Below, piece after piece: positions 5,757 through 16,540 of a stretch of 38,679 nt of DNA. The stretch comes from Chrysochromulina tobinii (Eukaryota), in the NCBI GenBank assembly GCA_001275005.1, contig JWZX01003071.1, positions 1-38,679 on the forward strand, given 5' to 3'. How positions within the stretch are numbered: the stretch's first letter is position 1; every line of letters starts with the position of its first letter. Under the pieces are notes generated by a model. It ran no database searches. It was not told the origin of the DNA and saw only the letters and a program-made list of their open reading frames with translations. The translations under genes were made by a program, and so were the position numbers.

Positions 5757-8700
5757 ATGCCGGCGGTCAAGGAAGGGAGTGACCGCTCGGCCAAGGGCCA
5801 GTCGGCGGTCAAGGCGGCAAAGGCTGCGCCCGGGCTTGTCGCGGTGATCAAGGCCGATGTAAAGGCCGAGAAGTCGCCCAAGGATAATGCACTTCCCGCA
5901 GGCAGCGCTTCTCCCAAGGTCGCCAGGAAAGAGGTGAAGCCGGCCGAGCACAATCAGGGGAGCGATCGAAAGGGAGCGGCTGATAAGGGCGGGCAAGGGA
6001 CTGGGCGGAAAGCCGAGGCCGTCAGCGGGAAGCCGAAGCCGACGGGCAGTGCCCTGGGTGGCATTGCTCTGGGTGGCCTGCCGAAGGCCGGGCCGCTGCC
6101 GCCGATGTCGCCCCAAGCGGCCCCCGAGCCGGTGCGCACAACGGCCGGCCCCAGGGTCGACTATTACAGCGCGGAGCTGCTCAGCCGACAGCCGCTCGCG
6201 GCAGCGGCGCGCGAAGCCCTTTACCGCAAGTGCGGCAAGAAGGACAAGGACGTGTGCTACACGCGCAACGAGCAGCATCGGCCGAGCGGCGTCGAAGACG
6301 GCAAACCCTCGCGCCACGAGCGCGTTCCGCCGGGCAAGATCGTGCTCATGTTTAATTGCGCGCGGTCGAGCTTCGAGTTGACGCACGGTGATGTGGCGAC
6401 CTTGCCCGATTCGGAGACCATCGACCTGCGCGCGCTCACGAGCGGCGCGGCGCTCGGGCGCATCAAGATTTCGCCCGAGAAGGGGACCCCCATAGAAGAT
6501 CGTATCGATTGCCCCAATGAGTGGCGTGTGGGGGCCGAGCATGGCCTGGTGCACGATGGACTCCAGTCAGACGGGAGCCTCGAGGTGCGTATCGACTGGC
6601 GCGATCACGATGGCGATTCGCACGTGGCGCTGCTCCGTTTCAACCCTTGGCTCGCGTACGGCTGCGGCGAGGGCGCGCGCCTCGCCATGCGCAAGCCCGG
6701 GATGCTCGAGGGCACAGCCGCGACGGTGCAGCGCACGCTGCGCGACGACTCGGTCGTCGTGCGCCGCGACGGTGTGGCGATGGGAGAGGTGACCGTCGAC
6801 CCGACGCCATTCACGGTGGTGAAGGCATTGAACCCACGGCATGCGCCGGGCACGCGGCTACTGTTCGTGCATGACGGTGCCTCCGTCGATGCGCTTGTCG
6901 AGCCCTGGCACGAGAAGGAGATCGATATCAAGGAGGGCTCGCGCCACAATTTAGCAGTGCAGAGTCGCCTCATGTCGGGTTGGGTGACCATGTCCACCAA
7001 AGATGGCATCGACAACCTCAAGCGTGTGGAGGAGGGCGGCGAGGGCGACGTGCCAGGCGAGGAGAATGTGGTGTACGTTCTCTGCTCGGCGAAGCCTCTC
7101 GCCCTACGAGCCGGGTGCGACCCTCTGAACAGCGAGAAGTGCGGCACGCTCATGCCCAAGACGCCGTGCCGCGTTCTAGAGAAGCGCGAGACGGAGGAGT
7201 TTGGGCTGCGCGCGTACATCTCATCGCTCCCTGGCATGGTGGTCTCGCTCTGCGCGGCGCTCAACGAGTTCAACCACGCGGTGCAGCGCTTCCCCTCAGT
7301 GTCCGAGTACGAGGCAGCGCGTGCCAATTATTTAGAGGATATCGTGACACGTGAGGCGCTTGTCGAGGACGCGATCACGGGGAACAACCTGCGCATCAAG
7401 GACCAGACGCTGCACGTGTCGACCGGGACGGAGCAGCAGGACAACTCACGCATCCCGTCCGAGTGGAATGTGAGCGACGTACGTGACCTCGTGACGCTGC
7501 TGCTCCAAGCCTCGCCCAACCGTCACATGGGGTTGCACCCGGCACTGCCCGTGCTCGTGCGCGCCGGGCCGGGAACCGGCAAGACGTGGATGGCGAAGCA
7601 GGCGGTCTTCACGCTCGCCGATCGTCTGCTGCGCGGCGCGGGCGCCAACGACGGCATCCGGCTCGTGCCGATTGTCGTCTTCGTGCAGCGCATCATCTAC
7701 CTGCTGCGCGAGGCGTCCGCCTCGAACCAAAGCAAGCATCAGTCTTTGCTCGGACGGTACATCGAGTCGATGTACAGCGGCAAAAAGTTCCAGTCGTGGT
7801 GTGACATGCTCATGCAGGCGTACGAGATGCGCGCGCTCATCGTGCTGCTCGACGGCGTCGACGAGGCCGCCGGTCTGCGCGAGCAGATCGACGAGTTTGT
7901 GCACAAGGACATCGTGCCCAGCGGCAATCGCGTGCTGGTGACCACTCGGCCTGAGGGCATCCTGCTCTCGTCTTACATCAAGACCTTTGTGGTGATGAAC
8001 CTGTGCCAGCTCACCAACGAGCAGCAGAGGCGCGTGATCAACATCCAGATGGAGGGCAACGAGTTCTTCGACCACCTGCTCTCGCTTGGCGAGGTGCGCA
8101 AGGGGCTGGACGACGCGTACAAGAAGATTGGCGCCGTCACGCGCGCCGACCTCGAAGCGTTGTGGGCTCCGAGTGGATGGCTTATGGCCGACTCGGACGA
8201 CTTCGACCCGGCGGAGCGCCAGAAGGACCAGACGGGTACGCGGGTAGTCGCCGAGAGCCACCGCGCCATCCGCTCGGCGTACCTCAAGGAGCTCGACGAC
8301 GGCATGCGCGAGGCCCGAGGCGCGAGCCGTGTGCCGCTGCTCGACCGCATCGACACTGCCATGGCCAAGGTGTCTGTAGGCGCGCAGGCCAAGGAGTTTG
8401 CGCAGGTGCTGCTCGCGGACGCGGGCGACACGTCGGGGGGCACGAAGCCGCCCTTCTCGGTCGCCCTCAAGCTGAGCAGCCTGTTGCAGGGGCGCAAGGA
8501 AGAGCTGCAGAAGCTCGAGGCAACCACCGATAAGAAGAAGAAGAAGGAGATCCAGGCGAAGGAGGCACTCGAGGTGAAGGCGGCCGAGGCGATGTGGAAG
8601 ACCATGTGCCAGCGCACGGACGAGATCTACATGGTCGCTGAGCACATGGAGCCCGTCTTCAAGAAGGTCGTCGCCAAGCTCGTGACCGAGGTCGGCAAAG

Positions 8701-16400: not shown

Positions 16401-16540
16401 AGAAGCGTGAATCGACCGAGGCCATGCCCGGGCTAGGCAAGGACGGCGCCGAAGGGCCGGGCAAGATCATTGAAATCCTGCCGCACCTGCCCGCCGACCT
16501 CGGACGCGCCGGCGGCAAGGTCGACGGCAAGCCGAAGTAA
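10415..16540 (+). CDS. C-terminal part of giant NLR-Roco protein (after frameshift): RI-like LRRs, typical LRRs, Roc GTPase, COR, Zn ribbon, ADP-ribosyltransferase
   Basis: NxTLxxLxLxxN LRRs (10415-~12570); LxxLxLxxNxLxxLP LRRs (~12700-13170); Roc G1 GHGEAGKT (13226-13249), G3 WDLAGQ (13379-13396), G4 TKCD (13568-13579); COR-like region from IPRTW (~13830-14940); CPSC/CERC (14957-15124); ART motifs WRG, FLSLTT, SAFPDDCE. Confidence 0.88.
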   Translation, partial: LASLNVSANGVGGRNEDSVGLARMLATALGLVSLNLSGNLLGDLKGYLRPFGRGLGANKTLTQLDVSNNNLMPDGIKIVCNALRTCTALKRLDVSYNSPGRETALPELLRMHPTLCSVGIVEKEPTTRSERTWHLDTRAKEAIGRALLDSPASVCYLQCDVFALHEETTSLNWVSQAPCDAIVLAGVLRANSTLKTLNIAANGSLGDFERDEIGRALLSNKKGAVGFCSIYGLKEGMSPTHTVDLKDKEQIRSLRSFTLFAGLLRANPTITSLTLSSVAPDHIDLLAQALATNTTLRELRLEQPQKGSDVAVTVLPVQDLNGSAGKKEIDLSSAGAPMEGTTVPSPMHRHACGVVGALLAANQSVHYLKINPGPGAEGGGILEHLHRARKSTLRVLDLTGIGLGDRGGVRFFETLLAGSCSMLHTLCLGSNKLTSNSIGPLVVEVLRQDNCNLTSLDINSNLIGGPVITQAIKFNKSLTELNITGNPLEDEGLWLIGGLLLEPDCTCHLRAIHTFAFDVTDTVHKHGTSGLLEAGAARLLFGVLKYTTSVTNLNLSSAGIEPTAAFDLANAVAANGTLKTLDLNSNPLSDPGTYLQPGEKKKTDKNEKEKKDERSDTKGLFALAEAIKVSPSLAELTLEGGKLPVTSLKGSNLKVKAIDLSRRNLSYLSAIFLGTLLEMNSTITELSLHTNELTPLGAKMVVERLQPSLKSLDLNNIVRVDSTEKNKKGAEKGKNLSYSTVTPRVAEKEVVAEQLEQLWAAVMKLGSLEKLTMDRDHLLDLRPDRDSISTLGQLINLKTLSLANNRLTSLPEDLCLAKGLKVLSLHNNKLTELPISIGQLESLEKLDLKSNNLTFLPTSISQLMSLKILDASDNKLASLDASICDLMNIEKLEFKDNPLQRPPATIARQGITAIRRYFVELAASGETPSNGARLVLLGHGEAGKTSLQRGLRARAPRPSAVDDRTIQLDIYSLVLGEMGTPRQVVLSMWDLAGQPQYAAGLQPYIVDGSLYLLTVPALDVHSLNASHSDYLGRWLNYLEVGAPNAIVLPVLTKCDMLPGADALPSHQRTHEKFTELAKAQLEWFKDGINRHLAQQDGNSRLQIEPVVQCLSSVEGGDISLETMRTRLEEIVFSEPPRLASIGQLIPRTWLLAITFLRALRDGRNPVEASKMAESGNQSTPVPGQEAAPLVGHSYMRLADAVDRYLTQFVPFIKAASADEQVLKDALQLLVNQGEIFASSGIIYLQPDYVTRLLKPLVDHRMGKKFMQAVAAKLPVEMVDAERAATLTAADCLATSGELREELLPVMWEPVGLSRDDFGGVALMLCESGVLFLAEHSHQGRRWVMPMRLRDEQPTDAKQQWAEAIEAESAEVMGLAIRLGRFSPPGILERLMALCYGLGKYHKFWKRGAQIESHFEGHISQLLIELRAVYPVEDAGGVRVLVEALKPVVSASSPDKSSEDKKQQHKLDPVYELSIEFCGDKSQRARQYAVLTQVQGLAQTVLDDFEGLQTTTELNCPSCAKRVELLKMQIEQTKYRRRSKQSADDELKPDLTITRWPLEDVSKKSLRCERCKETVTLNNVPTNVGKIQGMSLILPTKAPEFVVPEHRLVSDKLKLGKPLEASFGLAKLLGLSDATDFEPMRHATELQLAEEVAANASALDEDEFGWTDLDWLHYLIGKPVMKPHDAEAMAATAAMARPAPTEGTPFAEKLDKGHEATLLSHFAALPIVQAAGLTKGHVLALRLFSSSFARKLNTPLHYGCSVERPHPYPIALVLTLDALYRLRSAQADERKQAIAASAEADAKLAEAQVELMKEAGQGDEEVAEQCAQEAAKCAARLEYLNTSIYWRGVCGLPPAEFKQRGACEVGFLSLTTQRSLAQEATISMIADLEKARTSEILFEEQSRESARSHSSMHPRSASRDSLGLTPGRHPGTPGGRRESHEAAGKAAGMAEAPIVLLRVRIERAGKEPENVPTDISFLSAFPDDCEAVFVPGAYMEQKRESTEAMPGLGKDGAEGPGKIIEILPHLPADLGRAGGKVDGKPK
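15390..16490 (+). other. R-S-E clade mono-ADP-ribosyltransferase-like domain
   Basis: ALRLFSS..KLNTPL helix, Arg in YWRG (15950), Ser in FLSLTT (16016), DISFLSAFPDDCEAVFVPG with Glu at 16367. Confidence 0.7.

What the first reader, a model, noticed from the sequence alone, without database searches (positions are those of the whole stretch)
5757..16540. Giant NLR-Roco hybrid with two NTPase switches and two nucleotide-using effector domains
Seen: one apparently intronless ~10.8-kb coding region (one frame break) encoding, in order, SH3/Tudor-like barrels, NACHT (Walker A/B, GxP, FxHLSFQE), an inserted RelA/SpoT-like domain, RI-type LRRs, typical LRRs, Roc (G1/G3/G4), COR, a Zn ribbon and an ART. 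Established: NACHT-LRR proteins (NLRs) are oligomerising immune sensors; Roco proteins normally carry LRR-Roc-COR, often with a C-terminal kinase; RSH-like synthetases and R-S-E ARTs act as toxic or signalling effectors in conflict systems. Inference: a ~3,590-aa all-in-one algal innate-immunity or cell-death machine, perhaps antiviral, in which ATP-driven oligomerisation and GTP-dependent dimerisation gate nucleotide signalling and ADP-ribosylation. I do not know of a described protein with this architecture.
Basis: partly seen in the sequence, partly recalled or inferred. Interest (0 to 1): 0.92.

Follow-up and report, generated by a model that had tools for sequence, protein, structure and literature searches.

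The report
Giant algal NLR-Roco double-switch enzyme
A freshwater alga carries one intact 3,593-amino-acid gene that joins an NLR-type ATP switch with a predicted alarmone-synthetase domain built into it to an LRRK2-type GTP switch ending in a predicted ADP-ribosyltransferase, likely a self-contained immune or cell-death machine of a layout not found in the papers searched.

Summary
The frame break is an assembly error: contigs from three RNA runs and one probable DNA run, plus four other assembled contigs, lack two bases at 10414-10415. Chrysochromulina parva encodes the intact 3,593-aa protein, 98-100% identical per region. RNA contigs cover the gene without intron joints.

Profiles support NACHT (weak here, above cut-off in paralogues), LRRs and Roc. 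COR is likely. AlphaFold models match RelA/SpoT synthetases (top 10 structural hits, Z 8.0-9.8) and R-S-E ADP-ribosyltransferases (Z up to 15.7), with catalytic residues kept. The SH3/Tudor barrels are unconfirmed.

The synthetase sits inside the NACHT helical domain and marks a large unannotated NLR-like clade (247 clusters). The Roco-ART tail also occurs as apparently stand-alone proteins and is exchanged for a second, inactive NACHT module in paralogues.

Against a classic pathogen receptor, the LRRs are under strong purifying selection and the neighbours are housekeeping genes. An immune or cell-death role is inferred, not shown.

The parts
5757..16540 (+). Single intronless CDS, 3,593 aa in intact copies; the window carries two extra bases at 10414-10415
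5481..5756 (+). Probable 5' leader covered by RNA contigs; no in-frame ATG upstream
5757..6158 (+). Low-complexity, poorly conserved N-terminus
   Evidence: 24-33% identity to paralogues
6159..7253 (+). Conserved N-module: beta-rich unit with two tandem ~50-aa barrel-like repeats plus a ~90-aa insert found only in the Roco clade; SH3/Tudor/KOW-like by eye, fold untested
7476..8078 (+). NACHT nucleotide-binding domain and first HD1 helix; Walker A at 7566-7586, Walker B acids at 7851 and 7860, sensor-1 at 7941-7949
8079..8573 (+). Mostly helical linker, first part of the insert in HD1; folds with the synthetase domain
8586..9233 (+). RelA/SpoT (RSH) synthetase-fold domain inserted in HD1; K999, R1003, K1007, D1028, F1108, R1109 and E1127 kept
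9234..9443 (+). Rest of HD1 with the GxP motif (9300-9308)
9726..10343 (+). Winged-helix/HD2 region with the NACHT WHD motif at 10146
10414..10415 (.). Two bases present only in this assembly (assembly error)
10418..12655 (+). Ribonuclease-inhibitor-type LRR array with inserts
12713..13165 (+). Typical LRRs leading into Roc
13193..13825 (+). Roc GTPase; G1 at 13226-13249, G2 Thr at 13307, G3 at 13382-13393, G4 at 13568-13579, all intact
13826..14947 (+). Likely COR domain
   Evidence: not reached by the PDB profile
14948..15133 (+). Four-cysteine Zn ribbon (C3067, C3070, C3119, C3122)
15236..16486 (+). R-S-E (cholera-toxin/C3-class fold) ADP-ribosyltransferase with two helical inserts; R3398, S3420, D3535-x-E3537
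16541..17056 (+). Probable 3' untranslated region covered by RNA contigs

Best explanation
This is one intact haptophyte gene for a NACHT-LRR protein fused to an LRR-Roc-COR-Zn ribbon-ART Roco module, and it likely works as a two-switch intracellular danger sensor whose predicted outputs are a pyrophosphorylated nucleotide and ADP-ribosylation of a protein. Shown: single reading frame, RNA cover, domain order, RSH and ART folds, kept catalytic motifs, expanded family. Inferred from how NLRs work (recalled): the RI-type LRRs and WHD hold the NACHT closed on ADP until a ligand or a disturbed guarded protein triggers exchange to ATP and ring formation. Because the RSH domain is grafted into HD1, next to the adenine-contacting GxP helix, that change would move and cluster the synthetases, which would transfer pyrophosphate from ATP to a 3'-OH acceptor (GDP/GTP, ADP/ATP or tRNA; unknown). 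Inferred from Roco proteins: GTP binding and COR dimer exchange would set whether the C-terminal ART is exposed; it would use NAD+ to modify probably an arginine. The likely result is growth arrest or death of an infected or damaged cell. Likely origin: fusion of a member of the HD1-RSH NLR clade to a stand-alone LRR-Roc-COR-ART protein, with later exchange of tails.
For: One frame in independent copies. RSH fold: the 10 best of 48,161 chains are all RSH synthetases (RelP Z 9.8, rmsd 3.8, 172 aligned; Tas1 9.6; CapRel 8.6; best other 6.9). K999/R1003/K1007, D1028 and E1127 match RelP Lys80/Ser84/Lys88, Asp107 and Glu174 by spacing and secondary structure (my mapping). They are 80-95% conserved in 126 aligned inserts. 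ART fold: HopU1 Z 15.7, rmsd 3.1, 196 aligned; ART2.2 Z 15.1. R, S and E are all kept here and in 8 of 11 ART-bearing paralogues. Walker A/B and G1-G4 are intact. The family is expanded and modular: 14 of 32 long relatives are NACHT-Roco, 13 carry a second module with a degenerate P-loop, and 5 carry EF-hands inside the insert. Roco-bearing NACHT cores are not one clade (AU p 8.9e-6). Precedents in conflict systems: RelA_SpoT on fungal NLRs (PMC4986451, passages) and LRR-AP-GTPase-COR with variable effectors (PMC8195603, section 15). NACHT, LRR and TIR genes are up-regulated in virus-recovered Gephyrocapsa huxleyi (PMC12489294, passages). C. parva has lytic viruses (PMC6459981 and PMC12085832, listing only).
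Against: No activity, ligand or infection data. LRRs are highly conserved between near-identical copies (20 synonymous vs 1 non-synonymous change in 746 codons against L002; dN/dS 0.02) and dN/dS is below 1 in every well-covered comparison, unlike fast-evolving pathogen receptors. The neighbours are housekeeping genes and GC is unremarkable. The insert has Phe where RelP has the guanosine-binding Tyr151 and no basic residue at Arg91 (my mapping), so (p)ppGpp is not assured. The insert is eroded in P0022 and in the double-module paralogues, 3 of 11 ARTs lack R or E, and one Roc subclade has drifted G motifs, so some members work without these activities. The AU test used a grouping named after an earlier tree was seen, on a quick LG+G4 tree.
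Confidence: 0.5

Rival explanations
1. It is a housekeeping signalling or scaffold protein (for example for flagella, haptonema, calcium or nutrient state) that reuses conflict-type domains; the ART and RSH domains regulate host targets reversibly rather than killing.
For: Strong purifying selection on the LRRs. Housekeeping neighbourhood. Held by 14 RNA runs with no known infection. EF-hands in related members. Orthologues 94-100% identical per domain apart from the low-complexity N-terminus and the linker.
Against: Lineage expansion with at least three tail types and many N-terminal fusions (Kelch, ubiquitin, discoidin, ankyrin, KptA). The enzyme domains diverge fastest between paralogues (39-55% vs 70-90% for the NACHT core). 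This pattern is typical of conflict proteins.
Confidence: 0.25
2. It is an immune-type sensor, but the RSH insert is a sensing or decoy domain: it binds a nucleotide alarmone or an invader protein and trips the NACHT, leaving the ART as the only enzymatic output.
For: The position inside HD1 suits control of the switch. The Tyr-to-Phe change in the acceptor loop. The insert is eroded or extended by EF-hands in other members.
Against: Both metal ligands and the ATP-binding lysines are kept here and in most of 126 family inserts, which suggests selection for catalysis.
Confidence: 0.22
3. It is two adjacent genes (a NACHT protein and a Roco) or a pseudogene, as the split public annotation P0216 (1,553 aa) implies.
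For: The window has a stop at 10416-10418 and P0216 equals the first frame. No single RNA contig spans the whole gene.
Against: 8 of 8 other contigs or loci examined at the site lack the two bases. Full-length 3.2-4.1 kaa homologues read through the junction.
Confidence: 0.02

Closest known systems
NACHT-LRR NLRs (NLRC/NOD type; C. tobinii paralogue annotated 'protein nlrc3')
   Same: NBD-HD1-WHD core with intact motifs followed by RI-type LRRs.
   Different: No Death-fold or TIR N-terminus. About 400 aa are inserted in HD1. The protein continues into a whole Roco module. The LRRs are not hypervariable.
Fungal NLRs with an N-terminal RelA_SpoT domain (Dyrka et al. 2014, PMC4986451; PMC12258605)
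   Same: An RSH synthetase domain and a NACHT in one chain, proposed as effector (passages read).
   Different: There the domain is N-terminal and matches Pfam PF04607. Here it is inside HD1, is missed by Pfam, and belongs to a separate protist family with its own motifs.
Roco / AP-GTPase-COR proteins (LRRK1/2, Chlorobium Roco; bacterial counter-invader Rocos of Kaur et al. 2021, PMC8195603; brown algal ROCOs, PMC11378527)
   Same: LRR-Roc-COR followed by a variable C-terminal effector.
   Different: An entire NLR is fused upstream and the effector is an ART, not a kinase. Neither ART nor NACHT fusion appears in the passages read; the source-data tables of Kaur et al. were not opened.
Small alarmone synthetases and toxSAS enzymes (RelP, RelQ, Tas1, CapRel, FaRel2)
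   Same: Fold and predicted ATP/Mg ligands.
   Different: 10-15% identity, an altered acceptor loop, and embedded in a eukaryotic NACHT; the product is unknown.
R-S-E mono-ARTs (HopU1, ART2.2, Vis, Tre1, C3)
   Same: Fold and R-S-E residues.
   Different: Intracellular algal domain with two long helical inserts. It has D-x-E rather than E-x-E in the catalytic loop. No export or delivery part was seen.

Membership tests
NACHT-clade NLR | NACHT NTPase with Walker A, Walker B and sensor-1 | tested here: met
   Motifs intact; Pfam weak here, above cut-off in paralogue P0006 at about 78% NBD identity class
NACHT-clade NLR | HD1 GxP and winged-helix motif after the NBD | tested here: met
   motif names recalled; region not folded
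NACHT-clade NLR | C-terminal repeat sensor | tested here: met
   LRR_6 and LRR_8 above cut-off
NACHT-clade NLR | N-terminal signalling or effector domain | tested here: inconclusive
   A conserved N-module of unknown fold
NACHT-clade NLR | Ligand-triggered oligomerisation and an immune output | not testable with these tools
   Needs biochemistry and infection experiments
Roco | Roc GTPase with G1-G4 | tested here: met
   Pfam Roc E 8e-11; best PDB hits are Rocos
Roco | COR domain directly after Roc | tested here: inconclusive
   COR-B E 0.083 here, above cut-off in P0014 and E about 1e-5 in three more relatives; the PDB profile matched only Roc; not folded
RSH synthetase | RelA/SpoT synthetase fold | tested here: met
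   Model pLDDT 90; 10 of the top 10 VIA rows; Foldseek E 9e-4
RSH synthetase | Mg ligands Asp and Glu, and ATP-binding lysines | tested here: met
   D1028, E1127, K999, K1007 by my motif and secondary-structure mapping to RelP
(p)ppGpp synthetase | G-loop tyrosine for guanosine binding | tested here: not met
   Phe1108 here and Phe in 81% of 126 inserts, Tyr in 2%; mapping inferred. Lowers 'makes ppGpp', not 'works like an RSH'.
(p)ppGpp synthetase | Measured product | not testable with these tools
   Needs an assay
R-S-E mono-ART | ART fold | tested here: met
R-S-E mono-ART | Arg, Ser and catalytic Glu | tested here: met
   R3398, S3420, E3537
Arginine-specific ART | E-x-E loop (recalled) | tested here: inconclusive
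   D-x-E here; E-x-E in 6 of 11 paralogues
SH3/Tudor barrel | Barrel fold or profile match | tested here: inconclusive
   ESM rows at 0.85 with SH3_16 or SH3_3 on 12% of members; no Pfam or PDB hit

The most novel reading that the evidence does not exclude
This is the most elaborate member of an undescribed, widespread protist NLR class in which an alarmone-type synthetase is built into the NACHT switch itself. Receptor activation directly makes a pyrophosphorylated nucleotide signal or toxin outside the plastid. In Chrysochromulina this class has captured a Roco-ART module, wiring an ATP switch and a GTP switch in series as a two-step antiviral suicide device.
Probability: 0.3. Interest if true: 0.93.

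Novelty: new variant of a known kind. Interest (0 to 1): 0.82.

Why it matters
Antiviral mechanisms of bloom-forming haptophytes are largely unknown. This gene gives a concrete candidate in a cultured genus with isolated viruses. It puts the two main NTPase switches of animal, plant and bacterial cell-death systems, STAND and Roc-COR, in one chain. It also reveals a large NLR-like clade whose enzyme domain sits inside the NACHT, which Pfam-based surveys miss. If active, it would extend alarmone-type chemistry to eukaryotic cytosolic immunity. It would also offer a natural Roco with a non-kinase enzyme read-out for studying how Roc-COR controls an effector.

Tried and rejected
Sequence searches that failed. 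Pfam found no RelA_SpoT, ART or SH3 family in the window's own segments, nor RelA_SpoT in 42 of the 150 insert hits scanned. PDB sequence searches gave nothing for the first half, the insert profile or the N-module. The COR profile matched only Roc. These misses reflect divergence; the folds settled RSH and ART.

Distribution. No close relative was found in viral contigs for the insert or the ART, or in prokaryote genomes for the NBD. These were single-protein, close-relative scans. Viral structure hits are distant phage RSH proteins at 9-14% identity, so no viral origin is claimed. One relative is labelled as an archaeal MAG (P0320, 2.3-kb contig); I take it as probably mis-binned and did not test this.

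Readings dropped:
- Programmed frameshift or hidden intron: the DNA run and the loci also lack the two bases.
- 'ART-less paralogues': P0006, P0008 and P0013 end early, but cluster mates P0305 and P0309 carry the ART, so loss is not claimed.
- Hypervariable LRRs: rejected.
- The L001 ART dN/dS row was dropped because a 2-base gap at 16130 puts that contig out of frame.
- Values against L006 and L007 are rough, as dS is near saturation.
- Short 90-95% contigs reflect paralogues and were not used as splice evidence.
- No flanking mobile-element repeats were found.

Left open. A second read-laying over the neighbouring genes was not obtained, so the silent-stretch control rests on 4500-4933 only. 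No complex prediction was run. Earlier-findings look-ups by words, sequence and place showed no report of this architecture.
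Full report
Observation. The window has two long overlapping + strand frames, 5166-10418 (first ATG 5757) and 9992-16540. The break is an assembly error. In all 4 runs laid (3 RNA, 1 probable DNA; 4 of the 17 runs that hold the stretch) the contig bridging the site lacks two bases at 10414. 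The same gap is in all 4 near-identical loci L001, L002, L003 and L005, and L002 and L005 carry the whole gene in one frame. The intact protein has 3,593 aa, exactly the length of Chrysochromulina parva P0218, which is 98-100% identical in every region. The runs may come from the window's own culture. P0003 (97% and 96% identical to the two halves), L002, L003 and P0218 differ in sequence and are independent support. A public record, P0216, holds only the first 1,553 aa.

Expression. RNA contigs tile about 5481-17050 without intron joints in the long pieces, while 4500-4933 has no RNA cover but has DNA cover. Contigs cannot give level or strand, and none spans the whole gene.

NACHT, LRR, Roc, COR and Zn ribbon. 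Pfam gives LRRs and Roc (E 8e-11) above cut-off, NACHT at E 0.013 and COR-B at 0.083. Relatives lift the weak ones above cut-off: NACHT in P0006 and COR-B in P0014. Walker A and B, sensor-1, GxP, the winged-helix motif and Roc G1-G4 are intact (motif names recalled). The best PDB sequence hits for the C-terminal part are Roco proteins. COR was not folded and stays likely. The four Zn-ribbon cysteines are nearly invariant in 25 rows.

The insert. Its model has pLDDT 90. The 10 best of 48,161 chains are RSH synthetases: RelP Z 9.8 (rmsd 3.8, 172 aligned), Tas1 9.6, CapRel 8.6, RelA 8.0; the best other fold scores 6.9. Foldseek agrees (E 9e-4). The ESM Atlas lists a cluster with RelA_SpoT on 34% of members at 0.93. 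In RelP, Lys80, Ser84, Lys88 and Arg91 bind ATP, Asp107 and Glu174 bind Mg, and Tyr151 binds the guanosine (PMC5794853, passages). By spacing and secondary structure I map these to K999, R1003, K1007, an acidic residue at 1010, D1028, E1127 and F1108. The lysines and metal ligands are 83-95% conserved in 126 aligned inserts (of 182 with a match). The Tyr is Phe, so the acceptor may not be GDP/GTP.

The ART. The model has pLDDT 78 and matches HopU1 (Z 15.7, rmsd 3.1, 196 aligned) and ART2.2 (Z 15.1); rows 1-18 are all ART-fold proteins. R3398, S3420 and E3537 are present, and all three are kept in 8 of 11 ART-bearing paralogues. Pfam ART families pass cut-off in P0022 and P0041.

The N-module. 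It is conserved and contains two barrel-like repeats, with an extra ~90-aa insert in the Roco clade. The SH3/Tudor label has only weak ESM support and no Pfam or PDB hit.

Family. Of 32 long relatives, 14 are NACHT-insert-LRR-Roc-COR proteins, 11 of them with the ART in the called sequence. 13 replace the Roco tail with a second N-module, a NACHT-like domain without a P-loop, and LRRs. 5 end in LRRs and carry EF-hands within the insert. Named members are all Chrysochromulina. The insert alone finds 247 clusters at 50% identity. Of the 150 listed, 93 show other NACHT parts, as do 78 of the 81 long enough to show flanks. It always lies between the NBD and the GxP helix of HD1. These proteins have varied ends: Kelch, ubiquitin, discoidin, EF-hand, decapeptide repeats and several LRR types (42 scanned). 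The synthetase inside HD1 is thus the mark of a broad clade, mostly from unnamed metagenome contigs. Four proteins, P0043-45 and P0047, start with typical LRRs and look like stand-alone LRR-Roc-COR-ART proteins (their DNA was not seen). They form the sister group of the 23 NACHT-fused or RI-LRR-starting rows in a midpoint-rooted Roc-COR tree (support 99/98). On a NACHT-core tree of 31 rows (P0008, P0015 and the near-identical EF-hand rows left out) the 12 Roco bearers are not one clade (AU p 8.9e-6; quick tree; group named). I infer fusion of an NLR to a Roco-ART, followed by tail exchange or repeated replacement.

Selection and context. Against L002 the RI-LRR array has 20 synonymous and 1 non-synonymous change in 746 codons; the ART has 4 and 4; the insert has none. 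Against L004 dN/dS is 0.27-0.32 for LRR, Roc and COR and 0.46 for the ART. Between paralogues the NACHT core keeps 70-90% identity, the LRRs 47-72%, and the insert and ART 37-55%. So the enzymes, not the repeats, diverge fastest, and nothing shows positive selection. The neighbours are pectin acetylesterase, aldo-keto reductase, coatomer beta, an EF-hand protein and a kinesin, at ordinary GC.

Mechanism. The best reading (0.5) is a two-switch danger sensor. LRR release lets the NACHT exchange ADP for ATP and oligomerise. That moves and clusters the HD1-borne synthetases, which pyrophosphorylate a nucleotide or tRNA. The Roc-COR cycle sets exposure of the ART, which ADP-ribosylates a host or invader protein. 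The outcome is arrest or death. Architecture, folds and residues are shown; every step of activation and the biological role are inferred. Rivals: a housekeeping signalling scaffold (0.25), a sensor or decoy role for the insert (0.22), and two genes or a pseudogene (0.02). Circumstantial support for immunity: NACHT, LRR and TIR genes rise in virus-recovered G. huxleyi (PMC12489294, passages), and C. parva has lytic viruses (PMC6459981, PMC12085832; listing only).

Known versus new. [quoted passage not shown] LRR-AP-GTPase-COR proteins with variable effectors are predicted bacterial counter-invader systems (PMC8195603, passages and section 15). Brown algal Rocos are candidate immune receptors of plain LRR-Roc-COR build (PMC11378527, passages). 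The RSH survey PMC3153485 (passages) lists synthetase-only eukaryotic forms in Dictyostelium and ascomycetes and does not mention NACHT. PMC7159879 (passages) shows no NACHT-Roc fusion. Ten full-text searches gave no paper describing NACHT plus Roc-COR in one chain, an RSH domain inside HD1, or Chrysochromulina NLRs. The library lacks most subscription papers, and I opened no supplements; the source-data tables of PMC8195603 could hold such architectures.

Verdict. The feature is real, intact, covered by RNA contigs and conserved. It is a new variant of the NLR/Roco kind, with one structurally surprising feature and an untested function. Interest 0.82.

Noticed in passing
P0016-P0019, P0021, P0023, P0025, P0026, P0030-P0034, P0272: Paralogues of 2.9-6.4 kaa repeat the N-module plus a NACHT-like domain that has lost its P-loop after the LRRs. 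Some also have a further NACHT upstream (P0019, P0272), giving tandem active and inactive STAND modules.
   Followed up: partly
P0261 (C. tobinii, clusters with P0026): A NACHT protein with an N-terminal Tpt1/KptA domain, another NAD-using member of the ART superfamily.
   Followed up: no
P0043-P0045, P0047: Apparently stand-alone LRR-Roc-COR-ART proteins; an ART-tailed Roco family not seen in the papers read.
   Followed up: partly
P0005-P0010, P0015, P0046: A Roc-COR subclade with long branches and drifted G2/G3 motifs, while the NACHT core stays about 80% identical.
   Followed up: partly
window 6960-7250: A ~90-aa insert found only in the Roco clade; it resembles a circularly permuted bacterial-type SH3 domain (recalled pattern, untested).
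   Followed up: partly
window 13120, 16753, 16801: Further single-base differences shared by all four runs (one silent substitution, two one-base gaps in the 3' UTR); probably more errors of this assembly.
   Followed up: no
window 4934-5377 and 17086-17500: High depth in the DNA run on both sides of the gene points to short genome-wide repeats; no matching pair was found within the window.
   Followed up: partly
window 1422-3437 (+) and 17272-18651 (-): Flanking ORFs of 671 and 459 aa with low-complexity or 9-bp tandem repeats and no convincing Pfam match.
   Followed up: no
window 33999-34921: Arrays of 79-nt and 54-nt repeats inside the kinesin gene, probably repetitive introns.
   Followed up: no
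P0309: A C. tobinii paralogue with this architecture is annotated 'dihydropyrimidinase', probably through merging with a neighbouring gene.
   Followed up: no
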